From IMG/VR virus record IMGVR_UViG_3300045988_183539: a stretch of DNA of 64,000 nt, one strand, 5' to 3'. Source of the DNA: a virus. The notes beneath the pieces are model-generated. The model searched no databases. It was given only the letters and a program-made list of their open reading frames with translations, and was not told the origin of the DNA. The translations under genes were made by a program, and so were the position numbers. Positions 14,478-62,798 of the stretch are shown here, piece after piece (the stretch's first letter is position 1; each line of letters begins with the position of its first letter).

Positions 14478-14693
14478 ATGACAAAAACAGAAGCGGTTAT
14501 TCTTGGTATTGATATTTATGATGTTTGTAAGAAAAGTAAGAATGAAACAGAAGCAATAAATAAAATCATTAATTTATTAAAACAAGAGAAATTAATAAAA
14601 ATAGATAAAGAAAATCTTTATGAATGTAAAGGACAAATGAGTATAACAGATTATCCAGAATATTTACCAGATGGTTATGAAATGGATAGATAA
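14478..14693 (+). CDS. hypothetical 71-aa protein
   Basis: ORF track; AGGAG RBS. Confidence 0.45.
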   Translation: MTKTEAVILGIDIYDVCKKSKNETEAINKIINLLKQEKLIKIDKENLYECKGQMSITDYPEYLPDGYEMDR

Positions 14694-20082: not shown

Positions 20083-20701
20083 AGAGTGGGTTCAGACCGC
20101 AAAACAAATAAATAATTTAGGTTCAATCTCTGCTGATGCAATAAGTGATTTACATTCAACAGATAACTGTATATCAACGTGGGATGTTAATAATAAAAAT
20201 AAAGATGATGTAAAGAAAGGAATACAAGCTTTAACATCTGGATTTAGGGCATTAGAAGATATAAAAATAGTATATTTAGATTTTGATAAATTAATAACTT
20301 CAGGATTTAATATAATACAAACTAATGGTTTAACCAAAATAAAAAATTATGAAAAACTACATAGAGATATTTCAGATTTGAATTCTGATAAATTACAAAA
20401 TTTAGCAAAAATTATTTTAGAAGAAGTATGGAGCAAAAATACTGAAATAATACACAAACAGGATATTATTTGTTATTTAATAGAAGCTTTAAATGATGGG
20501 TTATTAGAATTTAATAGTTTAGAAAAAAATGTAAAACAGGAATTAGCTTCAAATATAAATAAACAGTTAAAAAAAGGTAAATTAAAAGAAAGTGATTTTG
20601 ATAAAAAGGTATTAGATGATATAAAAGAACAGATTAAAAAACAAAATAAAAAGACAAATTGTCGTTATGAAGAATTTTGTGAAAGATATAATAAAAAATA
20701 A
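20048..20701 (+). CDS. hypothetical 217-aa protein
   Basis: ORF track. Confidence 0.4.
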   Translation: MSYLIRMIGQNKEWVQTAKQINNLGSISADAISDLHSTDNCISTWDVNNKNKDDVKKGIQALTSGFRALEDIKIVYLDFDKLITSGFNIIQTNGLTKIKNYEKLHRDISDLNSDKLQNLAKIILEEVWSKNTEIIHKQDIICYLIEALNDGLLEFNSLEKNVKQELASNINKQLKKGKLKESDFDKKVLDDIKEQIKKQNKKTNCRYEEFCERYNKK

Positions 20702-20788
20702 TTTATGTACCATTTAACATCTATTAAGAATGAGTTTAAAAAACTATTTTCTTAATAGGTGTTTTTTTGTTGTTAAAAAAGTGTACAT

Positions 20789-20822
20789 TATTTTTACTTT
20801 TCCACATTACTAGATATAGAAA
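20789..20822 (+). promoter_or_regulatory. promoter cassette family member
   Basis: TTTTTACTTTTCCACATTACTAGATATAGAA. Confidence 0.35.
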
Positions 20823-20877
20823 CAAAAAAAATAAAACAACTATATATTGTTTTTTTATAGAAAGTGATGTGATTAGT

Positions 20878-21408
20878 ATGATGGGAAAACAGCATTTAAC
20901 ATTTGGATTAGCTACAGGAGTAATAACAATATTTACACTAAAAGAATTAGGTTTTACAGAAGTCTGGAATAATTCCTTTTGTTTATTAACACTTACAGGA
21001 TTAGGTTCATTACTTCCAGATATAGATTACCCTTACACAACATTAGGAAAGAAAGTAAAACCTATCAGTAATCTTTTATATAAGACTATAGGACATAGAA
21101 CTTATACCCACGACTTATTTTTAATGATAATAATAATGGCTTTAAGTATATATAAGTATAATAATATATTTATGTATTTTTTATGGCTTGGAATATTAGG
21201 ACATTTATTTTTAGATAGTCTTACAGCAAAGGGTATTCCTTTTTTATATCTTTTTAATAAGAAAAACATACATCTAACACCATACAGATTTAGATTTAAT
21301 TCAAACAGTTTTAGGGCAAAAATAATAACAATATTTTTTTGCTTTTTATATGGTTACATAAATTATTGTATTTTAAAATATTTAGATATTCCTTTAAGTA
21401 TTACTTAA
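20878..21408 (+). CDS. YdjM/DUF457-family membrane-bound metal-dependent hydrolase
   Basis: MMGKQHLTFGLATG start, HRTYTHDLF and GHLFLDSLT His motifs between TM helices. ATG at 20878 chosen over the TTG track start 20767. Confidence 0.55.
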   Translation: MMGKQHLTFGLATGVITIFTLKELGFTEVWNNSFCLLTLTGLGSLLPDIDYPYTTLGKKVKPISNLLYKTIGHRTYTHDLFLMIIIMALSIYKYNNIFMYFLWLGILGHLFLDSLTAKGIPFLYLFNKKNIHLTPYRFRFNSNSFRAKIITIFFCFLYGYINYCILKYLDIPLSIT

Positions 21409-21496
21409 GGGAATATTTTTTTTGTAAAAAATATTACTTTTTTTTGCTTAAAAAAAAATCAATTGCATTATTTTTATATAATCATTAATTAAATTA

Positions 21497-21517
21497 ATGA
21501 TTACTCCTTTCTTTTTG
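21497..21517. promoter_or_regulatory. perfect 9-bp inverted repeat ATCATTAAT-TAA-ATTAATGAT
   Basis: Seen directly; lies in the 260-bp intergenic region beside the tRNA-like fragment. Confidence 0.4.
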
Positions 21518-21561
21518 GTATTTTATTTTTAAAACTTTTCTAACTTATATATTAGAAAATA

Positions 21562-21611
21562 CGCACTACTTTTAAATGGAAGATATTTAGGTTCGAGTCC
21601 TAATAGTGTGT
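21562..21611 (+). other. tRNA 3'-half-like fragment (acceptor strand + T-arm GGTTCGAGTCC + 3' acceptor)
   Basis: ttagg-TTCGAGT-cctaa T-arm followed by tagtgtg, which pairs with the upstream cgcacta. D and anticodon arms are absent, so it is not a full tRNA. Confidence 0.45.
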
Positions 21612-21671
21612 TTTAGGTTTTTATTAATAATTTAAAATCTAAAATACAAAGATATTGAAAGGAATAAAAAA

Positions 21672-21878
21672 ATGCACGAAATAGTTGAACATTATGGAAA
21701 GGTTATTTTAGCTCTTTTTGCTATTGCCGCAATTCTTTTATTAGCAGGATATGTAGTTTTTACAATTACAAAGAAGACAAAGACATCTGTAGATAGTATT
21801 GATTACGAAGATGCTAAAACAAAGGTAAGCGAGGCTTGGGGAGACAACACAAATCCAACAACTCCAAATGGAAATTAA
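21672..21878 (+). CDS. Flp/Fap-type pilin-like small protein
   Basis: 68 aa; E-x-YG motif (IVEHYGKVILALFAIAAILLLAG) then a hydrophobic helix; sits upstream of the TadA-like ATPase. Confidence 0.5.
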   Translation: MHEIVEHYGKVILALFAIAAILLLAGYVVFTITKKTKTSVDSIDYEDAKTKVSEAWGDNTNPTTPNGN

Positions 21879-21989
21879 TAAATAACAGAAGACTAAAAAA
21901 AGAAAAAGAGAAAATAATTATATATTAATAAACAATTAGTATATTATTTAATTTTCTCTTTTTTTAAAAATTAAAGGGAGAAAAATTTA

Positions 21990-23105
21990 ATGGAAAATAC
22001 AAATACATCTTTAACATTAGATGAAATAATAGAAAAGAACAGAAAAGATTTATTTTCAGAATTAAATGAATTCTTAGATAATGAAAAGATAACAGATATT
22101 GAATGGGATGGCGAACATTTATGGATAACAGAGTTAGGAAAAGGCTGTTATCCTGTTGATAAAAAATTATCTATAGATTTTGTGAATAATTTAAGTATCA
22201 GATTATCAAATATAATGAAAACTAATTTTAATGCTTTAAACCCTATATTGGAAGCACATACAAAAGAATTAAGAATATCAATCTTTCACGAAAGCAGAAC
22301 TGGGGAAAAATCTATAACTATTAGGAAAATTCCTACAAATATAAGATATAACCACGAAAAATTAGTAAAAGATAATACAATCCCAGAAGAATTATTAAAC
22401 CTATTAGAAAATTGTGTTAAAGCACATTGTAATATAGTTGTTGGAGGAAGACCTCACGCAGGAAAAACAGAATTAGTTAAATACTTATCTAATTTTATAC
22501 CAGCAAATGAGAAAGTAGTGACATTAGAGGATAATGCAGAAATCCATTATAGAGAAATACATCCTAATAGAAAGAGTGTATCATTTTTAGTTGATGATAA
22601 AGTAACATATTCAGATGCTATTAAGGCTTGTTTGAGACATAATGCTGATTGGTTACTATTATCTGAAGCAAGAGGACCAGAGATTATTGAACTTCTTAAT
22701 GCACTTAGTACAGGAAGTTATTGTATGACGACAGTACACGTAGATGGAGCTAAAGACATTCCTGATAGAATGTATAATATGCTTAATAATAGTAGTATAA
22801 ATGAAAGATTTATCAATAACATATATCGTTATATGGATGTAGGAATAATAATAAAAGCTGATAAAAAAGAAAACAGAATTATATCAGAAGTTGGATTTTT
22901 TAACAGAGCAAATGTTAAGAATGAAGATGGAGAATATGAAATGCAGAACATTTATACACCTTTTTATAATACATTTGAAGGGTTAAAAGATAAAGATAAG
23001 TTACCTATAAATATCCAAAGAGCATTTGTAAGAGAAAATATTAAAAATCCATTTGAAAAACCAGAAATTACTGATGAAATAAAGGAAGTTTCTGTAAATG
23101 GTTAA
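21990..23105 (+). CDS. TadA/CpaF/VirB11-family secretion ATPase
   Basis: Walker A VVGGRPHAGKTE, Walker B/Asp box WLLLSEARGPE, 371 aa. Confidence 0.7.
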   Translation: MENTNTSLTLDEIIEKNRKDLFSELNEFLDNEKITDIEWDGEHLWITELGKGCYPVDKKLSIDFVNNLSIRLSNIMKTNFNALNPILEAHTKELRISIFHESRTGEKSITIRKIPTNIRYNHEKLVKDNTIPEELLNLLENCVKAHCNIVVGGRPHAGKTELVKYLSNFIPANEKVVTLEDNAEIHYREIHPNRKSVSFLVDDKVTYSDAIKACLRHNADWLLLSEARGPEIIELLNALSTGSYCMTTVHVDGAKDIPDRMYNMLNNSSINERFINNIYRYMDVGIIIKADKKENRIISEVGFFNRANVKNEDGEYEMQNIYTPFYNTFEGLKDKDKLPINIQRAFVRENIKNPFEKPEITDEIKEVSVNG

Positions 23106-24597
23106 TACATTTAATAAAATAAAAGATTATTTCTCTTTAAAGCAGATGAAAAAAGAAATCTATGGTTATGGTTATACTGTATCAGGAATAAAATATTTAT
23201 TAATGACAATTATAAGTATATTAATAACAATAGGTTTTAGCTTATTATATCAAATGCAGATTGGCTATACAATAATAGTTGCGTTCCTATCTTTTGCTGT
23301 TATTCCTTTACTAATAAGAGCAAAATTTATTAATTTATATCAGAAAAAACGATTTAATGAAGTAGATATATATTTACATCAGATGGTTTATTCATTTCAG
23401 AAAAAACCTAAGATATTAACAGCTCTTGAAGATACAGTAAAAGTAAGTACAGGTAAATTAAAAAAGACCTTAGAAATAGCTATTGAAAACTTATATACAA
23501 GTTCTTCTGAAAGTTTGTATGAAGAGTCATTTAAAATAATAGAAAAAGAATATAATAATTCCAGAGTAAAAGCGTTAAACAAATATATGTTAAATATAGA
23601 AAAAACAGGTGGAGAGTATTCTAATTCTATTAATATTATGCTTGTAGATATTGATAGCTGGATAAATAGAACATATATGGAACAAGCAGAAGTAGAACGT
23701 ATTAAATTTACCAATATGATAGGTTTATTAATAGGCTTTATAATGGGTAGCGTTTGTTCAATTTTTTCTTATTATATGAACCATAGCCAATATGTATCTG
23801 TAAATGGAAGTGTAGCTGATGATGTATTATATCAGATTGGATGTTTAGTATTTTTAGTTGTATGTGTATTATTTTATACATATACACAAGTTGGATATAA
23901 CAGAGATTGGGTATCCAAAGAATTAAATAAAAAAACAGTAATGAAAGATTATAAAACAGCAACAGAATTTAATCCTAACAAGCTTAGAATAATGAGTATA
24001 CCAATATATATATTTTTCATTATTTTAGCAATAGTTATATATTTTATAAAGGCAATTCCTTTTAGAGGATTTATTTCTATAGGTCTTATAGCTTTTGATA
24101 TATATTTAATAATATCACCTAAATTACAAAAAAATGGAGCTGTTGCAAGAACCAAAAAGAACATTCAGAATAGTTTCTCAGAATGGTTAAGAGATGTTTC
24201 ATTGAATTTACAAAAAGAACCATTGTTGTCTGCTATTCAGGATACATATGATGAATGTCCTGTAGTATTAAAACCAGAATTAGAATTATTTTTAACAAGA
24301 ATAGAAGAAAATCCAACAGCAGTAGAACCATATTATGAATTTTTAGCAAGATTTCGTATTTTAGATATAAGTTCTGCCATTAGAAATTTATATTCTATCT
24401 CAGACAATAATTCAGAAGATATGGATAAACAGTTAAATTCTTTAATAGAAAGAAATTATAGTATTATAAATAAAAATGAAATAGCATCATATGAAGATAG
24501 AAATGCAGCACTGCATTTTTCTGAAAACATTCCTATAATTATAGCCAGTATTAAGTTGGGAATTGATATGTTAGCTTTAATTTCAATATTTATTTAA
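23098..24597 (+). CDS. TadB/TadC (GspF-like) polytopic membrane protein
   Basis: 499 aa with two clusters of TM helices separated by cytoplasmic domains; overlaps the ATPase stop by 8 nt. Confidence 0.5.
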   Translation: MVNTFNKIKDYFSLKQMKKEIYGYGYTVSGIKYLLMTIISILITIGFSLLYQMQIGYTIIVAFLSFAVIPLLIRAKFINLYQKKRFNEVDIYLHQMVYSFQKKPKILTALEDTVKVSTGKLKKTLEIAIENLYTSSSESLYEESFKIIEKEYNNSRVKALNKYMLNIEKTGGEYSNSINIMLVDIDSWINRTYMEQAEVERIKFTNMIGLLIGFIMGSVCSIFSYYMNHSQYVSVNGSVADDVLYQIGCLVFLVVCVLFYTYTQVGYNRDWVSKELNKKTVMKDYKTATEFNPNKLRIMSIPIYIFFIILAIVIYFIKAIPFRGFISIGLIAFDIYLIISPKLQKNGAVARTKKNIQNSFSEWLRDVSLNLQKEPLLSAIQDTYDECPVVLKPELELFLTRIEENPTAVEPYYEFLARFRILDISSAIRNLYSISDNNSEDMDKQLNSLIERNYSIINKNEIASYEDRNAALHFSENIPIIIASIKLGIDMLALISIFI

Positions 24598-32940: not shown

Positions 32941-32959
32941 AAAATTGAGGATTTATATT

Positions 32960-33847
32960 ATGAAAGATTGGATAAAAAATATTCATACCATTGATAAGAC
33001 TTGTGTAAATTCTGAAGGGGAATATTATAAATATACAGAATTTAACAGAAAGCCAATATCTTTATATATCGTTGTAACAAGAGATTGTAATGCCAGATGT
33101 CCTTTTTGTGAATATAGAGGAAAACTAAAAAAAATCAATATCAATAAATTTGAAGAAATTTTTATTGAGTTAAGTAAATATTATGATATTACAACAGTTC
33201 ATTTTACAGGTGGAGAACCTACCTTAGAATTAGATACAATTAATGTATTAAGCAAAGTCATAAAAGAAATTTCTCCTTTAACTAAAACAAGCGTTAACAC
33301 CAATGGAATATTCTTAAATGAATTGTCTAATATAGATACAATAGATAATATTGCTTTAAGCAGACACACTATTATAGATAAAGATAATTTTAATATTTTT
33401 AGAACCAATAATATCGCTACATATGAAAATATTTATAATAATAATTATAAGGAAAAAATTCATTTAAGCTGTAATCTTATAAAAGGATATATAGATAGTA
33501 GTGATAAAATATTAGAATATCTTGAAATGGCATCTAAATTAGATATTAATGATGTAGGTTTTGTTAGTCTTATGCATATAAATAATTATTGTGAAGAAAA
33601 TTTTGTAGAATTTAGTAATATAATTCCAAAGGAAAAGGATTTTTTTAATAAAACAAGAGATTATAAATGTATTAATAATAAAAATATAATTACTTGCAAG
33701 TGTGAAAATTATCTTTATAGAGCTAAAAATATGAATTTTATATCAATGTATCATAGATATGCTATTAAGAATAATGAAAAAGCAGATTTTCTTGTTTATG
33801 AAAACAATCATTTAAAACAAGGCTTTAATGGAAATATATTAATATAA
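32960..33847 (+). CDS. radical SAM enzyme
   Basis: CNARCPFCEY (CxxxCxxC) near the N-terminus and a GGEP motif (HFTGGEPTL). GAGGA RBS before ATG 32960 (track start 32945). Confidence 0.6.
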   Translation: MKDWIKNIHTIDKTCVNSEGEYYKYTEFNRKPISLYIVVTRDCNARCPFCEYRGKLKKININKFEEIFIELSKYYDITTVHFTGGEPTLELDTINVLSKVIKEISPLTKTSVNTNGIFLNELSNIDTIDNIALSRHTIIDKDNFNIFRTNNIATYENIYNNNYKEKIHLSCNLIKGYIDSSDKILEYLEMASKLDINDVGFVSLMHINNYCEENFVEFSNIIPKEKDFFNKTRDYKCINNKNIITCKCENYLYRAKNMNFISMYHRYAIKNNEKADFLVYENNHLKQGFNGNILI

Positions 33848-35360: not shown

Positions 35361-35801
35361 ATGAAACATAATATAAAGCAAATATCTTTTATGATAGCGT
35401 CTTTTAAAGATATTACTGATTCTTTTGGAGAAAATAAGAAATCTATAGAATTTTTTAAAAGGCAGGTTGAAGGTCTTGTTAATATAGGTCAGTTAAATTA
35501 TTTAGATGTTATTTTATTCTATAATATATTAGATATATATAATACTAATTTAGAAGAAATAGACTGGATTAAATTAAATAAGAATTTAAACGAATACATA
35601 GAAACTATGAGTAAGGTTGTAAATATAAAAAATAAAGATAGCGTGTATTATTTATTAACAGATAATAATAATATATCTAAGCAGACTAAAAAAGTTATAT
35701 TTAGGACATTAGATATAAAAGATGAAGATTATAAAATAAGTTCAAAGGATAATGATATATCTTTTGGTAGTTATGAAAAGAATAATTCATTTTTATATTA
35801 G
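35361..35801 (+). CDS. hypothetical protein, paralog of 34618-35319
   Basis: See above; GGAG RBS. Confidence 0.5.
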   Translation: MKHNIKQISFMIASFKDITDSFGENKKSIEFFKRQVEGLVNIGQLNYLDVILFYNILDIYNTNLEEIDWIKLNKNLNEYIETMSKVVNIKNKDSVYYLLTDNNNISKQTKKVIFRTLDIKDEDYKISSKDNDISFGSYEKNNSFLY

Positions 35802-36489
35802 AGATTGTATTAATGAACATACTAATGAATTAAGAGAAGATATTTTAGGTTCAAGAAAAGAAAGATGGATGATTGGTGTTAGTTGTATGAGTGGTTGTCC
35901 TGTAAGATGCCAGTTTTGTAATACTGGAAAATTAAAAAGGTATAGAAATCTATCTGCAAAAGAGATATATGAACAGGTTGTTTTTATATTAGACAAGCAT
36001 CCAGAGATAAAAGAGATTGATAGTAAGGAATTTAAGATTAATTATACAAGAATGGGAGAACCTTTTCTTAATATTGAAGCTGTAAAAGAAGCTATCACTC
36101 TTATAGACAATGAGCCAAGATTAAAGAATGTCAAGATACATCATTATATAAGCACAATAGGACTTAAAGGTAGTGATTTTAGTTTTGTAAAGGATAATAT
36201 TACTTTACAAATTAGCTTACATAGTCTTAATGAAGATAGAAGACACAATCTTATTCCTATAGATGGACTTATGAGTATAAAAGAACTTGGCGAAATAAGA
36301 ACAGAAAGTAATCTTAAGACAACTGTTAATATGACGCTTGTAGACACAAAAGACTTTGATATTGATATTATGAAAAAGTATTTTGACCCTAAGTATTTTT
36401 TTATTAAGCTTAGTCCTATTAATGAGAATGAGGTTAGTAAGGAACATAATATGGGTAAAGGTATTATTCATAGAGAAAATTTAATATAA
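35773..36489 (+). CDS. RlmN/Cfr-family radical SAM protein, trimmed form lacking the N-terminal domain and the C-terminal Cys-bearing tail
   Basis: GVSCMSGCPVRCQFCNTG...RNLSAKEIYEQV, TRMGEPFLN, ISTIGL and LQISLHSLNEDRRHNLIPI align with the RlmN core. No Cys after the cluster. Start uncertain (35752, 35773 or 35866). Confidence 0.6.
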   Translation: MKRIIHFYIRDCINEHTNELREDILGSRKERWMIGVSCMSGCPVRCQFCNTGKLKRYRNLSAKEIYEQVVFILDKHPEIKEIDSKEFKINYTRMGEPFLNIEAVKEAITLIDNEPRLKNVKIHHYISTIGLKGSDFSFVKDNITLQISLHSLNEDRRHNLIPIDGLMSIKELGEIRTESNLKTTVNMTLVDTKDFDIDIMKKYFDPKYFFIKLSPINENEVSKEHNMGKGIIHRENLI

Positions 36490-39075: not shown

Positions 39076-39510
39076 ATGTGTAATAATATTTCAAATAATA
39101 TAAAAGAATTAAGAGAAATGACAGGATTATCACAAAGTGAATTTGCTTCTAAATATAAAATACAAAAGAGAACCTTACAAAATTGGGAGCAAGGTATATC
39201 AAAAGCACCAGAATATTTTATAGACCTATTATCAAAAGATATTCTAAAGGCAAATGATATAGAAAAAATATACTCTATTATTGGAAAAAAAGGAAAATAT
39301 ATCTATAATGATTGTAAAGAATGTCTTATAGACGATAAAGGAAACGATATTAATATAAAAATACCTGATTTTGATAAGATAAACAAACATAACTTAGGTT
39401 TATATTGTGACTTTTTATTTGAAGACTATAAAAATAGTGTTGAAGATTTTATAAATCAATGTAAGGGAGATATTAAATCAGATATGATATGGACTACATT
39501 TGATGATTAA
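39076..39510 (+). CDS. XRE-family HTH protein (HipB-like antitoxin position)
   Basis: IKELREMTGLSQSEFASKYKIQKRTLQNWEQG HTH; immediately upstream of the HipA-like kinase. Confidence 0.6.
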   Translation: MCNNISNNIKELREMTGLSQSEFASKYKIQKRTLQNWEQGISKAPEYFIDLLSKDILKANDIEKIYSIIGKKGKYIYNDCKECLIDDKGNDINIKIPDFDKINKHNLGLYCDFLFEDYKNSVEDFINQCKGDIKSDMIWTTFDD

Positions 39511-39527
39511 TTGATGAAAGGAAGAAT

Positions 39528-40781
39528 ATGAAAGATTATATATTAATGCATAAAAATATTGAAGTGGCATTAATGAAGTTAGATGAAAATGATGCTAATT
39601 CAAAGCCATCAAAGATATATTTGAATGAAAAAGAACAAGACCATATTCCTATCGGAGCAAGAATGAATAATATTAAATTCATTAACTGGTGGCAGGATAG
39701 GGCAATCCCTAAAACAAGGCAGGGAGCAAGAACAGCTTTACAAAGATTAGGATATAGTTCAGTTACAAATGCTATGATAAATAATCTGGCTTTAAGTCTT
39801 AATGATTGTTATTGGATAAAACCCAGATATTCAGAATTAACTTGGGAAGAAGTTAATTTATTTTCAAATAATTTTGTTGATGCTTTTGGAGAACTCACCT
39901 TTAACCAAACAGAGGATTTAGATTTAAGAAAATATACTAAGTTTTTAAGTGCTGTTTCACAAGGAGAAGTTCAAAAGAAATGGTGTATAGATAAGGATAA
40001 TCATAGGTATCTTGTAAAAGGTAATTATGGCAATTCTTATCAACAAAGCATTAATGAAGTATTTGCCAGCAATTTTCATAAAGACCAAAATTTTAATAAT
40101 TACACACCTTATTATTTTTGCAATATTGAACTTACAAATAACAGAAAAGGATTAGGATGTTTTTCTTATAACTTTTGTAATGAAAATATTGAAAGTATTT
40201 CAGCTTGGGAATTATTACAAACTAGAAAGATTAAACAAAATGAAAGCTTATACTATCCTTTCAAAGATATATGCTTATCGCTAGGAATCAAAGAAGATGA
40301 TTTTGATAATTTTATTGATTATGAGATTTGTAGTGATTTTTTATTTACAAATTTAGATAGACATATGAATAATATAAGTATTTTAAGAAATCCAGACACA
40401 TTAGAAATATTAGGGTTCGCTCCTATATATGATACTGGAAATAGTATGTTTTATAATGTTTCTACTAATGAATTAAATAATGTTAAGTTAGGACAAGATA
40501 AAACACATTCATTTATAACATCAAAAGAAAATAGATTGCTAAAGTATGTTAGAAATAAAGAGATTATAAACATAGATAAAATTAATACTGATTTCTCAAT
40601 ATACGAAAAGGATATTTATGATGATTTAAGGATTTCTTTATTAAAAGAAAAATTTGAAAGAAAAATAGATTTGTTGCTGTCTTTTCAAAAAGGCAATAAT
40701 ATCTGGGAAGATAATTATAATAAAATATATATACAGAATTATAATAATTCAATAGAAACTGATGAAATAGACTTAGATTAA
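39528..40781 (+). CDS. HipA-family Ser/Thr kinase-like toxin
   Basis: C-terminal catalytic motif LDRHMNN (D-x-H-x-x-N) and FAPIYDTGNS (DFG-like) as in the HipA fold; 417 aa. Confidence 0.65.
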   Translation: MKDYILMHKNIEVALMKLDENDANSKPSKIYLNEKEQDHIPIGARMNNIKFINWWQDRAIPKTRQGARTALQRLGYSSVTNAMINNLALSLNDCYWIKPRYSELTWEEVNLFSNNFVDAFGELTFNQTEDLDLRKYTKFLSAVSQGEVQKKWCIDKDNHRYLVKGNYGNSYQQSINEVFASNFHKDQNFNNYTPYYFCNIELTNNRKGLGCFSYNFCNENIESISAWELLQTRKIKQNESLYYPFKDICLSLGIKEDDFDNFIDYEICSDFLFTNLDRHMNNISILRNPDTLEILGFAPIYDTGNSMFYNVSTNELNNVKLGQDKTHSFITSKENRLLKYVRNKEIINIDKINTDFSIYEKDIYDDLRISLLKEKFERKIDLLLSFQKGNNIWEDNYNKIYIQNYNNSIETDEIDLD

Positions 40782-47882: not shown

Positions 47883-48362
47883 ATGAAAACTAAGAAAACA
47901 CTAAAATTAGAACAAGATATATATAATGCTACAAAGAAAGTGGGAGTCTTTGGATGTTTTGAAGTGACAATAGGTTTCTTTGGTAAAGAAAGAGTAGATT
48001 ATATGACATATGATACAAAAGGTATTTTTAGATGTTATGAAATAAAAGTAAGTAAGTCTGATTTTCATAGCAATGCTAAATTAAGTTTTGTAGGTCATTA
48101 TAATTATTATGTCCTTACAAGAAAATTATACGAAGAGGTTAAAGATGAAATACCTGATTGGGTTGGTGTTTATGTAGGAGAGAACCTTGTAAAATCACCT
48201 AAAAAGCAAGATATAGACGAAAAGGTATATAAATATAGAAGAACAATAAATGGTCGCTCTAGTGAGCTTACAATACCTTATAAAGAGATGTTAAAAGAAA
48301 GTATTATTAGGTCTCTATACAGAGATGCAAATAAATGGTATATTTATAATTATCAATTATAA
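47883..48362 (+). CDS. PD-(D/E)xK nuclease-fold protein (VRR-NUC/Hjc-like)
   Basis: GVFGCFEVTIGFFGKERVDYMTYD...FRCYEIKVSKSDF has the core beta-strand order with D...E-x-K. Confidence 0.45.
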   Translation: MKTKKTLKLEQDIYNATKKVGVFGCFEVTIGFFGKERVDYMTYDTKGIFRCYEIKVSKSDFHSNAKLSFVGHYNYYVLTRKLYEEVKDEIPDWVGVYVGENLVKSPKKQDIDEKVYKYRRTINGRSSELTIPYKEMLKESIIRSLYRDANKWYIYNYQL

Positions 48363-48378
48363 AGGTGGTATATATACT

Positions 48379-49176
48379 ATGATGATAGCTTTAACATATA
48401 GATGTAATATGGGATGCACTCATTGTATTTCAGATTGCAAACCAGATGGAATAGATATGAGTAAAGACACTCTTATTGATAGTCTTGATTTTATAAATAA
48501 ACATAAAATAAAAGCAATATTGTTTTCTGGCGGTGAACCATTTGAGCATCCAGATATTATATCTTTACTTGATGTTATAGAAGAAAAATTAGATAAGAAT
48601 ACCCCTATTACCTTTGCTACAAATGGAAGAGTTTTAGCAGATAATATTGAAATTTATGAAAAAGTATCTGAATTAGTTAAGAAGAATAAGAAAAGAATAA
48701 TCATACAGGTAACAGATGATGATAGATTTTACCCTACTAAACTTAATGAAAAGCAAAGATATAGACTAGAAAAGATAGGTGCTGTTATAGAAGGTGTTCC
48801 TAGCTATGTTTCTGATAGAAATAAATGTTTATATCCACAAGGTAGAGCTTTAGATAATTTTGATGAATCTTTTTATTATACTATTGCACCTAAATGCGTT
48901 AATATACGATTATTAGTAAGACAGAATATAAATAAAATATCTAATATATGTGATACATTGCTTATGAGAGGAAAGATGTGTACTCCAGTAATTGCTCCTA
49001 ATGGTATGCTAAAAATAGGAGAGTCAGCCTTGTGTCCTGAAGTAGCTTCAATTTATGATAATGAAAAAGATATTATAAATAAAATATCTCATTTTAATTG
49101 TAATAAATGTACATATGCACTTGAACAATTAAAGAAAAATAATCTACCTGCTTATAATCTATTAATAAAGGAGTAA
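48379..49176 (+). CDS. radical SAM enzyme with Cys-rich SPASM/twitch-like C-terminal domain
   Basis: CNMGCTHC (CxxxCxxC), FSGGEPFEHPD, C-terminal CVNIRLL...CDTLLMRGKMCTPV...ALCPEV...NCNKCTYA. AAAGGTGG RBS before ATG 48379. Confidence 0.6.
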   Translation: MMIALTYRCNMGCTHCISDCKPDGIDMSKDTLIDSLDFINKHKIKAILFSGGEPFEHPDIISLLDVIEEKLDKNTPITFATNGRVLADNIEIYEKVSELVKKNKKRIIIQVTDDDRFYPTKLNEKQRYRLEKIGAVIEGVPSYVSDRNKCLYPQGRALDNFDESFYYTIAPKCVNIRLLVRQNINKISNICDTLLMRGKMCTPVIAPNGMLKIGESALCPEVASIYDNEKDIINKISHFNCNKCTYALEQLKKNNLPAYNLLIKE

Positions 49177-61907: not shown

Positions 61908-62798
61908 ATGGATAATACAGCTTTAGCAAAGAGAATGAAAAAATATTATGAAGAAGTACCTAAAACAAGATTAATAAGAAGAATGCCAGTATGTATAAGA
62001 TTAGATGGAAAAGCATTTCATACGTTTTTAAAGGGATTTAAAAAGCCATTTGATGATATATTTATAAAAACAATGCAGGATACTATGAGATACTTATGTC
62101 AGAATATACAGGGATGTGTATTAGGTTATTCACAATCAGATGAAATCAGTTTAATACTTATAGATTATCAAAAACTCACAACAAGTGCCTGGTTTGATTA
62201 TAATGTTCAAAAGATATGTAGTGTGTCATCAAGTATGGCTACATTAACCTTTAATAAGCTATTAAAAAACAATGTTGATAAATATAAGGTTGAAAAATGG
62301 GATGGAGTTTCAAAGTATAAAAATGGAGAAGATGAATATATTGAGACATTATTAAGAGCAGTTGATAAAGGTGCAATGTTTGATAGTAGATGTTTTAATA
62401 TACCAAAGGAAGAGGTTGCTAATTTAATATTCTGGAGACAATTTGATGCAAGCAATAATTCAGTACAAATGGTAGGACAGGCTTATTTTACGCAAGAAGA
62501 ACTTAATAACAAGAATACTAATCAGATACAGGATATGTTAATGACACAGAAAGGCATTAACTGGAATGATTATCCTATTTATCAGAAGAGAGGAAGTTGC
62601 TGTATTAAACGAAAATTCTGGATTGATAAAAATGATGGGTGTGAATTTAGTGAAGAATATTCTTGTGAATTAGAAAAAGCAGGCGTTAATAGTGATAATG
62701 CTATTAAAAAAACAGAATGGATTATAGATAAAAACATTCCTATATTCAAAGGAGAAAACAGAAAATATATAAATGAATTAATACTTTTTAAGGAGTAA
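61908..62798 (+). CDS. Thg1-like protein (TLP): tRNA-His guanylyltransferase-family 3'-5' nucleotidyltransferase
   Basis: PVCIRLDGKAFHTFLKGFKKPFD and VLGYSQSDEISLIL match the Thg1 RLDG-x-FH-x-F and GQSDEYSF catalytic motifs; C-terminal ANLIFWRQFDASNN matches the Thg1 WRQ region; 296 aa. Confidence 0.65.
   Translation: MDNTALAKRMKKYYEEVPKTRLIRRMPVCIRLDGKAFHTFLKGFKKPFDDIFIKTMQDTMRYLCQNIQGCVLGYSQSDEISLILIDYQKLTTSAWFDYNVQKICSVSSSMATLTFNKLLKNNVDKYKVEKWDGVSKYKNGEDEYIETLLRAVDKGAMFDSRCFNIPKEEVANLIFWRQFDASNNSVQMVGQAYFTQEELNNKNTNQIQDMLMTQKGINWNDYPIYQKRGSCCIKRKFWIDKNDGCEFSEEYSCELEKAGVNSDNAIKKTEWIIDKNIPIFKGENRKYINELILFKE

What the first reader, a model, noticed from the sequence alone, without database searches (positions are those of the whole stretch)
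21497..21620. tRNA 3'-half-like fragment and a perfect palindrome in the long intergenic gap between the conjugation and Tad modules
ttagg-TTCGAGT-cctaa then tagtgtg is a textbook T-arm plus 3' acceptor strand, and the upstream cgcacta can pair with that acceptor strand to give a minihelix. The D and anticodon arms are absent. Integrative elements usually rebuild the 3' end of a tRNA gene at att sites, so this may mark an old integration junction or the element's own attP-like core. The adjacent perfect IR ATCATTAAT-TAA-ATTAATGAT is a candidate recombinase or regulator binding site. The surrounding 260 bp is the longest non-coding stretch in the first 26 kb.
Basis: partly seen in the sequence, partly recalled or inferred. 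Interest (0 to 1): 0.6.

Follow-up and report, generated by a model that had tools for sequence, protein, structure and literature searches.

The report
Anticodon-less tRNA mimic in operon leader
The "tRNA fragment" is a complete 51-base tRNA look-alike with no anticodon, kept intact by compensating mutations, lying in the folded untranslated leader of a pilus/secretion operon on a large AT-rich gut mobile element; it is most likely an RNA signal, not the scar of an integration event.

Summary
The sequence is real. GGTTCGAGTCC occurs once in 64 kb (0 of 100 shuffles). It belongs to a closed 51-nt structure at 21561-21611: an 8-bp acceptor stem, a short hairpin and a canonical T arm.

A relative whose ATPase is 79% identical (L022) carries the same structure at the same place. 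All 13 acceptor and T-stem pairs are kept and 5 are changed on both sides. This points to a structure under selection, not decay.

The integration-site reading is not supported. I found no second copy and no integrase among the ORFs scanned, and relatives are collinear across the gap.

The element lies inside a roughly 190-nt leader that folds far better than shuffles (z -3.4, and -3.8 in L022). Both also have a long-range helix pairing a CU-rich strand with the ribosome-binding site of a small Flp-like gene that precedes a CpaF/VirB11 ATPase.

Best model (inferred): RNase P and RNase Z cut at the mimic, which frees the ribosome-binding site.

The closest known family is Rfam SpF41, a tRNA-like sRNA of streptococcal phages and satellites. 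The window scores below its threshold (27.8 against 52 bits). I rate it a new variant of a known kind, of moderate interest.

The parts
21384..21418 (+). Intrinsic-terminator-like hairpin plus T-run. It ends the upstream YdjM-like gene (20767-21408) and defines the start of a new transcription unit.
   Evidence: Terminator scan: 16 pairs followed by a T-run, 1 site found against 0.2 expected. YdjM family PF04307, E 5.8e-23.
21444..21482 (+). Promoter-like region: TTGCTT (21444-49), A9 tract, CATTAT (21466-71) and TATAAT (21477-82). Which hexamer serves as the -10 is unresolved.
   Evidence: The motif T-run/TTnCTT, A8-9, N6-8, C(A/C)YTAT, N4-5, TATAA is shared at the orthologous position in L022, L023, L025, L035, L222 and L223. 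The sigma-70 consensus scan did not call it. The motif is not repeated elsewhere in the window.
21479..21503 (+). Perfect 12+1+12 palindrome. It is the predicted 5'-terminal stem-loop of the leader RNA, or alternatively an operator overlapping the transcription start.
   Evidence: Arms are identical in L022 but the spacer is 17 nt. L023, L035, L025, L223 and L222 have differently sequenced hairpins at the same position.
21509..21524 (+). CU-rich anti-Shine-Dalgarno strand (within ACTCCTTTCTTTTTGGTATTTT). It forms the 5' strand of the long-range helix.
   Evidence: Minimum-energy folds of the window, L022 and L222 leaders all pair this conserved CU-rich segment with the SD region.
21536..21559 (+). 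Stem-loop A (TTTTCTAA...TTAGAAAA), immediately 5' of the tRNA mimic. It contains TATATT (21548-53), a possible internal -10 element.
   Evidence: L022 has an analogous hairpin, CTAAAAAA-TAT-TTTTTTAG.
21561..21611 (+). Anticodon-less tRNA mimic. It has an 8-bp acceptor stem (21561-68 with 21604-11), a hairpin at 21569-82 whose loop ends in GG, the linker ATAT, and a T arm at 21587-21603 with loop TTCGAGT. There is a U at -1 and a UUU trailer, and no CCA is encoded.
   Evidence: Fold. Motif unique in the window. Homologues in L022, L213, L221 and L174. 13 of 13 pairs are kept and 5 carry changes on both sides. Rfam tRNA 16.3 bits and SpF41 27.8 bits, both below threshold.
21607..21648 (+). Stem-loop B. 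It overlaps the last 5 nt of the acceptor 3' strand, so its base competes with the acceptor stem.
   Evidence: Forcing the acceptor stem shortens stem-loop B to 10 bp and costs only 1 kcal/mol. L022 has a different 9-bp hairpin at the same place.
21649..21664 (+). 3' strand of the long-range helix. It includes the Shine-Dalgarno sequence GAAAGGA (21657-63) of the small gene.
21672..21878 (+). 68-aa membrane protein (MHEIVEHYGKVILALF...). It looks like a Flp pilin and is the first gene of the operon.
   Evidence: Orthologous small genes precede the ATPase in every relative, including Lachnospira MAGs. It has no Pfam hit. The Flp-like reading is my inference from the N-terminal E-x-Y-G motif followed by a hydrophobic helix.
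21990..23105 (+). CpaF/VirB11-family secretion ATPase, the second gene of the operon.
   Evidence: PF00437 T2SSE, E 4.4e-24. Homologues are named CpaF by JGI. It is about 32% identical to CpaF/VirB11 proteins of Clostridium and Bacillus plasmids.

Best explanation
Positions 21561-21611 encode a small tRNA mimic that is kept by selection. It has an 8-bp acceptor stem stacked on a canonical T arm. A short hairpin with a GG-ended loop stands where the D, anticodon and variable regions would be.

The mimic is one branch of a roughly 190-nt structured 5' leader of the operon that begins with the small Flp-like gene (21672) and the CpaF/VirB11 ATPase (21990). In the unprocessed leader a CU-rich segment (21509-24) pairs with the Shine-Dalgarno region (21649-64). 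This closes a loop that contains stem-loop A, the mimic and stem-loop B, and keeps the first gene untranslated.

Proposed mechanism (inferred, not shown):

1. Host RNase P recognises the acceptor/T-arm stack and cuts at 21560|21561, where a U sits at -1.
2. RNase Z cuts after the discriminator, where a UUU trailer follows and no CCA is encoded.
3. The cuts sever the anti-SD strand from the mRNA.
4. The ribosome-binding site is freed, the mRNA begins with stem-loop B, and a mini-RNA of about 52 nt is released.

Shown here: the structure, its conservation with compensatory changes, its position, and the shared leader architecture.

Inferred: that the leader is transcribed from the upstream promoter-like motif, that RNase P and RNase Z cut it, and the effect on translation.
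For: - **T arm.** All T-arm invariants are present (G53, U54, U55, C56, R57, A58, C61), and the motif is unique in the window with 0 of 100 shuffles containing it.
- **Covariation.** The window and L213 compared with L022 keep 13 of 13 acceptor and T-stem pairs. Five pairs are changed on both sides, against 1.7 expected, and 3 of 500 shuffles reach that value. Slid controls give 0-1. The flanking leader is only about 55-60% identical and full of indels. In my manual alignment the middle hairpin also keeps pairing, with one U-A to A-U swap.
- **Position.** In both lineages the element lies downstream of the upstream gene's terminator and of the conserved promoter-like motif, and 60-140 nt upstream of the small gene.
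- **Leader fold.** Both leaders fold far better than shuffles: z -3.4 with 0 of 200, and z -3.8 with 0 of 100. They share a 5' hairpin, an anti-SD:SD long-range helix, and three enclosed domains including the mimic. Forcing the full mimic in the window costs 1 kcal/mol.
- **Helix in a third relative.** L222 keeps the same anti-SD:SD helix around a different insert.
- **Processing contexts.** U(-1) and a U-rich trailer with no encoded CCA are conserved in the window, L213 and L022. From established knowledge (McClain, Guerrier-Takada and Altman 1987 for RNase P minihelix substrates; Zahler et al. 2003 for U-1; Pellegrini et al. 2003 for RNase Z of B. subtilis), these are the preferred contexts for bacterial RNase P and for RNase Z on CCA-less precursors. 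I cite these from memory.
- **tRNA-type genes nearby in relatives.** L024 has tRNA-Lys at 70 bits, and L222 has a tmRNA at 69.9 bits lying about 700 nt upstream of the small gene.
Against: - There are no expression or cleavage data. The transcription start is not known.
- Two candidate -10 hexamers give different starts. One of them would leave the left palindrome arm out of the RNA.
- A possible internal -10 element (TATATT, GATATT or AATATT lying 7-8 nt before the acceptor stem in the window, L213 and L022) could make the mimic the 5' end of the transcript, or a separate small RNA.
- Only three distinct sequences, from two lineages, carry the element. The covariation therefore rests on essentially one comparison.
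- Relatives at about 70% ATPase identity (L023, L025, L035, L223) run the same operon from a short leader with no mimic. The mimic is therefore dispensable for the operon as such.
- The stack is 13 bp rather than the canonical 12.
- In the window's minimum-energy fold the acceptor stem loses to stem-loop B.
Confidence: 0.4

Rival explanations
1. The mimic is a stand-alone small tRNA-like RNA gene, as in the SpF41 case. It would be transcribed from its own promoter just upstream, end at stem-loop B, and act in trans. Possible trans roles are a mimic or decoy for a tRNA-binding enzyme or toxin, a substrate of the element's Thg1-like enzyme, or a primer.
For: - SpF41, the best Rfam match, is such a unit. 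In Streptococcus phages and satellites it has an extended -10 (TGgTATAAT) about 10 nt upstream and a clear terminator.
- An A2/T6-conforming hexamer (TATATT, GATATT or AATATT) lies 7-8 nt before the acceptor 5' end in the window, L213 and L022.
- L022 has a hairpin plus a U-rich tail right after the mimic, then another 140 nt with a TATAAG-type motif before the gene.
- A Thg1-like gene lies on the same element.
Against: - In the window only 60 nt separate the mimic from the start codon.
- Stem-loop B is AU/GU-only and is not followed by a U-run.
- No downstream promoter is evident.
- The candidate hexamers lie inside stem-loop A, and their conservation may reflect that hairpin.
- The shared long-range helix spanning the mimic argues for one transcript.
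Confidence: 0.27
2. It is a functionless remnant of a tRNA or tmRNA gene that lost its middle by deletion, tolerated in a spacer where such genes often lie in this element family.
For: - Relatives have real tRNA-Lys and a degenerate tRNA-like sequence (L024) or a tmRNA (L222) upstream of the same operon.
- Several relatives lack the element altogether.
- ARAGORN and Rfam do not recognise it.
Against: - Five positions of the acceptor 5' strand and one T-stem position differ between the window and L022. Every one is matched by a pairing partner, and all T-loop invariants are intact, while the surrounding spacer has diverged heavily. Neutral decay would break the stems.
- The same truncated architecture occurs in both lineages, so the truncation came before the compensatory changes.
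- It shows no special resemblance to any of about 100 phage tRNAs or tmRNA ends sharing the L022-type T-arm/acceptor 3' pattern (the pattern does not match the window's own 3' end), nor to L222's tmRNA end.
Confidence: 0.1
3. It is an attachment-site core or old integration junction that rebuilt the 3' end of a host tRNA gene, with the palindrome as the recombinase binding site.
For: Integrative elements commonly target tRNA 3' ends. The element lies at a boundary between gene modules.
Against: - There is no second copy.
- No integrase was found among the ORFs scanned.
- Gene order is collinear in relatives with and without the element.
- The 5' acceptor strand is present and covaries.
- The element family occurs on 25%-GC contigs of up to 243 kb, with no flanking host DNA seen within the loci fetched around this operon.
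Confidence: 0.03
4. The structure acts in single-stranded DNA, for example as an origin of transfer or a single-strand initiation signal of the conjugative element, and not in RNA.
For: The gap lies next to a VirB4-like and CpaF/VirB11 gene set and is rich in inverted repeats.
Against: - Conservation of the exact T-loop consensus (UUCRANY closed by G53-C61) has no known role in DNA hairpins.
- G-U pairs in the acceptor stem (window) and in the middle hairpin work in RNA only on the + strand. The reverse strand scores 17.5 bits against 88.3 with the model.
- No relaxase was identified nearby.
Confidence: 0.05

Closest known systems
SpF41 sRNA (Rfam RF02435), a tRNA-like small RNA of Streptococcus prophages and phage satellites
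   Same: - It has an acceptor stem plus a canonical T arm (GGUUCGAAUCC).
- A short hairpin with a 4-nt loop replaces the anticodon arm.
- A 4-nt linker (AGAU against AUAU) precedes the T arm.
- It is carried by mobile elements, in a gap at the head of a structural operon (between early genes and terS).
- It is the best Rfam match of the window.
   Different: - SpF41 keeps a 17-nt D-arm-like segment (GUAGUAUAUAGGGAUUAC), which is missing here.
- SpF41 has its own extended -10 promoter and a strong terminator.
- The window scores 27.8 bits against a gathering score of 52, and L022 does not hit it at all.
- I found no described function for SpF41 in the searchable literature.
tRNA genes co-transcribed with mRNAs, and tRNA-like processing signals cut by RNase P and RNase Z (for example the tufB and secG-leuU operons of E. 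coli, C4 RNA of phages P1/P7, and mascRNA of MALAT1). These are recalled from my own knowledge.
   Same: An acceptor/T-arm module within a longer transcript could act as an endonuclease handle. It has U at -1, a U-rich trailer and no encoded CCA.
   Different: - Here the module is stripped of its anticodon arm and cannot decode.
- It is enclosed by an anti-SD:SD helix.
- No cleavage has been shown.
tRNA-like domain of tmRNA
   Same: - It has an acceptor stem plus a T arm with no anticodon arm.
- A relative (L222) carries a real tmRNA gene upstream of the same operon.
   Different: - There is no mRNA-like part and no pseudoknots.
- The G3-U70 pair needed for alanine charging is not conserved: G-U in the window under 8-bp numbering, G-C in L022.
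- There is no sequence similarity to L222's tmRNA ends beyond the T loop.
tRNA-gene attachment sites of integrative elements
   Same: It contains a tRNA 3'-end-like sequence at a module boundary of a mobile element.
   Different: - Both acceptor strands are present and covary.
- It is single-copy.
- No integrase was found.
- Relatives are collinear.

Membership tests
tRNA (Rfam RF00005; ARAGORN) | Cloverleaf with a D arm and a 7-nt anticodon loop, scoring at or above 29 bits | tested here: not met
   ARAGORN calls no gene. The Rfam tRNA model gives 16.3 bits against a gathering score of 29. The middle hairpin has a 4-6-nt loop.
tRNA (Rfam RF00005; ARAGORN) | T arm: 5-bp stem closed by G53-C61, with loop U54 U55 C56 R57 A58 N N, abutting the 3' acceptor strand | tested here: met
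   The window has TTAGG-TTCGAGT-CCTAA followed directly by TAGTGTGT. L022 has CTAGG-TTCGATT-CCTAG followed by TGATGCAG.
SpF41 sRNA (RF02435) | Score at or above the gathering threshold of 52 bits | tested here: not met
   The window scores 27.8 bits, E 0.047 in a 901-nt search. It gives no hit at gathering level. L022 gives no hit at E up to 10. True members score 95-114 bits.
SpF41 sRNA (RF02435) | Own promoter directly upstream and an intrinsic terminator directly downstream | tested here: inconclusive
   There are weak -10-like hexamers 7-8 nt upstream. The downstream hairpin has no U-run in the window and a U-rich tail in L022.
SpF41 sRNA (RF02435) | 17-nt D-arm-like segment between the acceptor 5' strand and the short hairpin | tested here: not met
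   The acceptor strand abuts the hairpin, with 0-1 nt between them.
tmRNA | tRNA-like domain with G3-U70, a tag reading frame and pseudoknots (RF00023 at or above 47 bits) | tested here: not met
   Neither ARAGORN nor Rfam finds a tmRNA in the window. G-U is not conserved in L022. A true tmRNA in L222 scores 69.9 bits.
tRNA-targeting att site | A direct repeat of the tRNA 3' segment at the other end of the element, plus an integrase | tested here: not met
   There is no second copy within 64 kb. No integrase domain was found. The rest of the roughly 240-kb element was not available.
tRNA-targeting att site | Identity of the segment to the 3' end of a host tRNA gene | not tested
RNase P / RNase Z substrate (functional class) | Coaxial acceptor/T-stem stack with an intact T loop, an unpaired 5' leader and an unpaired 3' trailer | tested here: met
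   The stack is 8+5 bp, with U at -1 and a UUU trailer, conserved in the window, L213 and L022.
RNase P / RNase Z substrate (functional class) | Actual cleavage at the predicted sites | not testable with these tools
   This needs an enzyme assay or RNA end mapping.
SD-sequestering translational leader (functional class) | An upstream anti-SD strand pairing with the SD, conserved across homologues | tested here: met
   The helix is predicted in the window, L022 and L222, with conserved (A/C)CTCCTTTCTTTT. These are predictions only.

The most novel reading that the evidence does not exclude
The mimic is a dedicated trans-acting partner of tRNA-end enzymes and not a passive processing handle. After release it would receive CCA and could serve in one of two ways. 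It could be a substrate, guide or primer for the element's own Thg1-like 3'-5' nucleotidyltransferase (61908-62798). Or it could be a decoy that absorbs host toxins or defence nucleases attacking tRNA acceptor ends when the element enters a new cell. Under this reading SpF41 of streptococcal phages and satellites would be a distant member of the same unrecognised class of anticodon-less tRNAs carried by mobile elements.
Probability: 0.1. Interest if true: 0.8.

Novelty: new variant of a known kind. Interest (0 to 1): 0.5.

Why it matters
tRNA mimicry inside bacterial mRNA leaders is rarely documented. This case offers a compact, testable example: a 51-nt acceptor/T-arm module placed between an anti-SD strand and the ribosome-binding site it masks, at the head of a pilus/secretion operon of an uncultivated gut element of about 240 kb.

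If RNase P or RNase Z cutting switches the operon on, that would link a housekeeping tRNA-processing activity to expression of a mobile element's surface machinery.

It also gives context to SpF41. That Rfam family has no described function that I could find, and it lies at an analogous module boundary in streptococcal phages and satellites.

For annotation practice, the case shows that a tRNA 3'-end look-alike on a mobile element need not be an att site.

Tried and rejected
- **Nucleotide similarity.** Searching 20500-23500 against plasmid and phage collections gave no match.
- **T-arm/acceptor pattern scan of viral contigs.** It returned 100 stretches. 78 were ordinary phage tRNAs (Tyr, Asn, Thr and others). 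Most of the other 22 looked like tmRNA ends or unrelated odd tRNAs. None had the mini architecture.
- **Palindrome-arm pattern scan of metagenome contigs.** It gave 82 mostly chance AT-rich hits. Only L174, L213 and L221 were relevant. The four hits from the viral scan were irrelevant.
- **ATPase-based scans of viral contigs.** They gave only L035 and L226, neither with the element.
- **Covariance model R1.** It found no further copy in the window (filters off) or in 35 related loci.
- **Repeated promoter motif.** I tested whether the promoter-like motif is repeated across the element. It is not above chance: 14 matches against 11 expected, and only 2 intergenic hits with the A-tract version.
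- **Literature searches.** I found no description of tRNA-like RNAs in phage or plasmid leaders or of anticodon-less decoys that matches this.
- **Considered and rejected.**
  - T-box or other riboswitch: no Rfam hit.
  - Two-piece tmRNA: the alpha_tmRNA hit of 10.7 bits lies inside the small ORF and is spurious.
  - Plastid-ycf2 hits on the minus strand: that model appears to mirror a T-arm/acceptor pattern on the opposite strand.
  - An 11-codon ORF starting at 21498: its peptide is not conserved in L022.

Full report
**1. What is in the sequence**

The window is 20-29% GC and almost every ORF is on the + strand.

The gap 21409-21671 follows a YdjM-family membrane protein gene (20767-21408; PF04307). 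A terminator-like hairpin plus T-run overlaps the end of that gene (21384-21418).

The gap precedes a 68-aa membrane protein gene (21672-21878) and a T2SSE/CpaF/VirB11-family ATPase (21990-23105).

GGTTCGANTCC occurs once in 64 kb, and none of 100 dinucleotide shuffles contains it.

Folding 21560-21614 gives a closed three-helix structure:
- an 8-bp acceptor stem, ACGCACUA with UAGUGUGU
- a hairpin, CUUUU-AAAU-GGAAG
- a 4-nt linker
- a T arm, UUAGG-UUCGAGU-CCUAA, abutting the 3' acceptor strand

So this is not a 3' half. It is a miniature tRNA-like fold of 51 nt (21561-21611) with no anticodon loop.

ARAGORN finds no tRNA. Rfam finds nothing at gathering level. At relaxed thresholds the best hits are SpF41_sRNA (27.8 bits, gathering score 52) and tRNA (16.3 bits, gathering score 29).

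The palindrome is a perfect 12+1+12, at 21479-21503.

**2. Where the window comes from**

The ATPase sequence occurs unchanged on many gut-metagenome contigs of up to 243 kb. In nine copies the intergenic region is identical except for the length of one T-run.

The window carries these genes:
- a VirB4-like ATPase
- an amidase
- two PIF1/Dda-like helicases
- RuvC
- flotillin
- three radical-SAM proteins
- a HipA-like protein
- a Thg1-like protein

It has almost no PHROG matches and no integrase domain among the ORFs scanned.

Relatives carry DnaE, a ParM-like protein, a tmRNA and tRNAs. IMG/VR lists a 244-kb relative.

The element is therefore a large AT-rich extrachromosomal element, either a megaplasmid or phage-like. 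Its host is unknown.

More distant relatives of the small-gene/ATPase operon (about 54% identity) lie in Lachnospira and Eubacterium MAG contigs. They have an ordinary promoter, a short leader and unrelated upstream genes.

**3. Comparative evidence**

| Locus | ATPase identity to window | What lies in the gap upstream of the small gene |
|---|---|---|
| L022 | 79% | Same gene order. A homologous element: CUGCAUCA-U-CUAUAAAAGGAUAG-UUAAU-CUAGG-UUCGAUU-CCUAG-UGAUGCAG-UUUU |
| L213, L221 | close variants | Middle hairpin shortened (CUUGGUGGAAG). T loop UUCGAGC |
| L023, L025, L035, L223 | about 70% | Short leader, no mimic |
| L024 | 71% | A true tRNA-Lys and a degenerate tRNA-like sequence |
| L222 | 72% | A true tmRNA further upstream, then a long leader without the mimic |

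On the alignment of the three distinct sequences, all 13 acceptor and T-stem pairs are standard pairs in every sequence. Five pairs carry changes on both sides and one goes from G-U to G-C. The shuffled expectation is 1.7 such pairs, and 3 of 500 shuffles reach the observed value. Sliding the 3' partners by 1-3 columns gives 0-1.

When aligned by hand the middle hairpin also keeps its pairing, including one U-A to A-U swap. Its loop always ends in GG.

The surrounding leader is much more diverged and full of indels.

A covariance model finds no further copy in the window or in 35 related loci.

**4. Reading of the comparison**

Compensated stems and an intact T-loop consensus within a diverged spacer indicate selection on an RNA fold. 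Simple decay of a tRNA gene would not give this pattern.

The same truncated layout in both lineages places the truncation before their split.

The att-site idea fails the testable parts of its own criteria:
- there is no second copy
- no integrase was found
- relatives are collinear
- the 5' acceptor strand is retained and covaries

Whether any host tRNA shares the 3' end could not be tested.

**5. The leader as a whole**

RNA folds of 21479-21690 and of the L022 counterpart are far more stable than shuffles: z -3.4 (0 of 200) and z -3.8 (0 of 100).

Both folds share one plan:
- a 5' hairpin made by the palindrome arms
- a long-range helix between a conserved CU-rich strand (ACUCCUUUCUUUU...) and the Shine-Dalgarno region
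- three domains enclosed by that helix: stem-loop A, the tRNA mimic and stem-loop B

In L022 the minimum-energy fold contains the whole mimic. In the window, forcing the acceptor stem costs 1 kcal/mol and leaves the rest unchanged. L222 has the same anti-SD:SD helix around a different 325-nt insert.

Relatives have a hairpin at the same place as the palindrome, with other arm sequences and loops of 1 to about 17 nt. That fits a 5'-terminal RNA stem-loop.

However, the arms are identical between the window and L022 despite a 1-nt against 17-nt spacer, and the left arm overlaps a TATAAT. An operator or a promoter constraint therefore cannot be excluded.

The transcription start is not established. 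Either CAYTAT or TATAA(T/A/G) could be the -10 element, and a third -10-like hexamer lies 7-8 nt before the mimic.

**6. Mechanism proposed**

The acceptor/T-arm stack has a U at -1 and a U-rich trailer, and no CCA is encoded. To my knowledge this is the context preferred by bacterial RNase P and by RNase Z on CCA-less precursors.

I propose that these enzymes cut the leader at the mimic. The cuts would detach the anti-SD strand, expose the ribosome-binding site of the small Flp-like gene, and release a mini-RNA.

This is inference. I give it 0.4.

The main rival, at 0.27, is a separate SpF41-like small RNA acting in trans.

**7. Closest known family**

SpF41 (RF02435) lies in Streptococcus prophages and satellites, between early genes and the small terminase gene. 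It has its own extended -10 promoter and its own terminator.

It shares with the window element the acceptor stem, the tetraloop hairpin, the 4-nt linker and the T arm. It differs in keeping a D-arm-like segment.

The window and L022 do not reach its threshold, so I do not file them as members.

I found no functional study of SpF41.

**8. Verdict**

The structural reading is right and the att reading is not supported.

This is a new variant of a known kind, a tRNA-like structured RNA, of moderate interest.

Noticed in passing
window 61908-62798 (+): A 296-aa Thg1 / tRNA-His guanylyltransferase-like protein (PF04446, E 2.3e-29). This is a 3'-5' nucleotidyltransferase acting on tRNA 5' ends. It lies on the same element as a tRNA mimic with a tRNA-His-like 8-bp acceptor stem. 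No link between the two was tested.
   Followed up: no
L222 71-386: A relative (ATPase 72% identical) encodes a bona fide tmRNA (Rfam 69.9 bits; ARAGORN tag EVQKKYILI*) about 700 nt upstream of the same small-gene/ATPase operon. Its 420-nt leader keeps the anti-SD:SD helix but has no tRNA mimic.
   Followed up: partly
L024 2143-2217 and 2301-2373: Another relative has a true tRNA-Lys(UUU) (70 bits) and a second, degenerate tRNA-like sequence in the equivalent gap. ARAGORN calls the second one Cys with an unusual ACA anticodon and T loop TTCTTGT, and it scores below the Rfam threshold. A long terminator-like hairpin follows.
   Followed up: partly
L224 2500-2608; L225 2501-2603: SpF41 sRNA copies lie in Streptococcus prophages (about 16.3 kb into genomes of about 38 kb, just before terS/terL) and in phage satellites. 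Each has an extended -10 promoter and an intrinsic terminator. In the prophage records the annotated upstream CDS overlaps the RNA's 5' end. The RNA looks like a tRNA whose anticodon loop is replaced by a tetraloop.
   Followed up: partly
window 21438-21445: The only difference among nine otherwise identical copies of the intergenic region is the length of a T-run (7, 8 or 9 T) immediately upstream of the -35-like TTGCTT. This could be sequencing or assembly noise, or a phase-variable promoter spacer.
   Followed up: no
window 32945-33847, 35752-36489, 48325-49176; 39076-40781: There are three radical-SAM ORFs, and an HTH protein followed by a protein with a weak HipA_C-like match (toxin-antitoxin-like pair). 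About 40 kb of ORFs have no family match.
   Followed up: no
L004 1-505: In one otherwise near-identical copy, the gene three positions upstream of the YdjM-like gene (upstream of the 195-aa and 211-aa genes) is replaced by a 473-aa protein with a Schlafen/AlbA_2 domain (PF04326). This suggests a variable cargo slot just upstream of this region.
   Followed up: no
window 14478-14693 (+): A 71-aa ORF with a good ribosome-binding site lies inside an apparent 404-bp gap. A CATTATT...TATAA motif like the one at 21466-21481 lies about 80 nt upstream of it.
   Followed up: no
L009-L021: The small Flp-like gene plus CpaF/VirB11 ATPase operon also exists in Lachnospira and Eubacterium MAG contigs at about 54% identity. 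It lies next to varied genes, apparently housekeeping ones in some loci (by my own reading of the sequence, not annotated), behind a textbook TTTACA-N17-TATTAT promoter. The mobile element's module may have been acquired from, or donated to, such hosts.
   Followed up: partly
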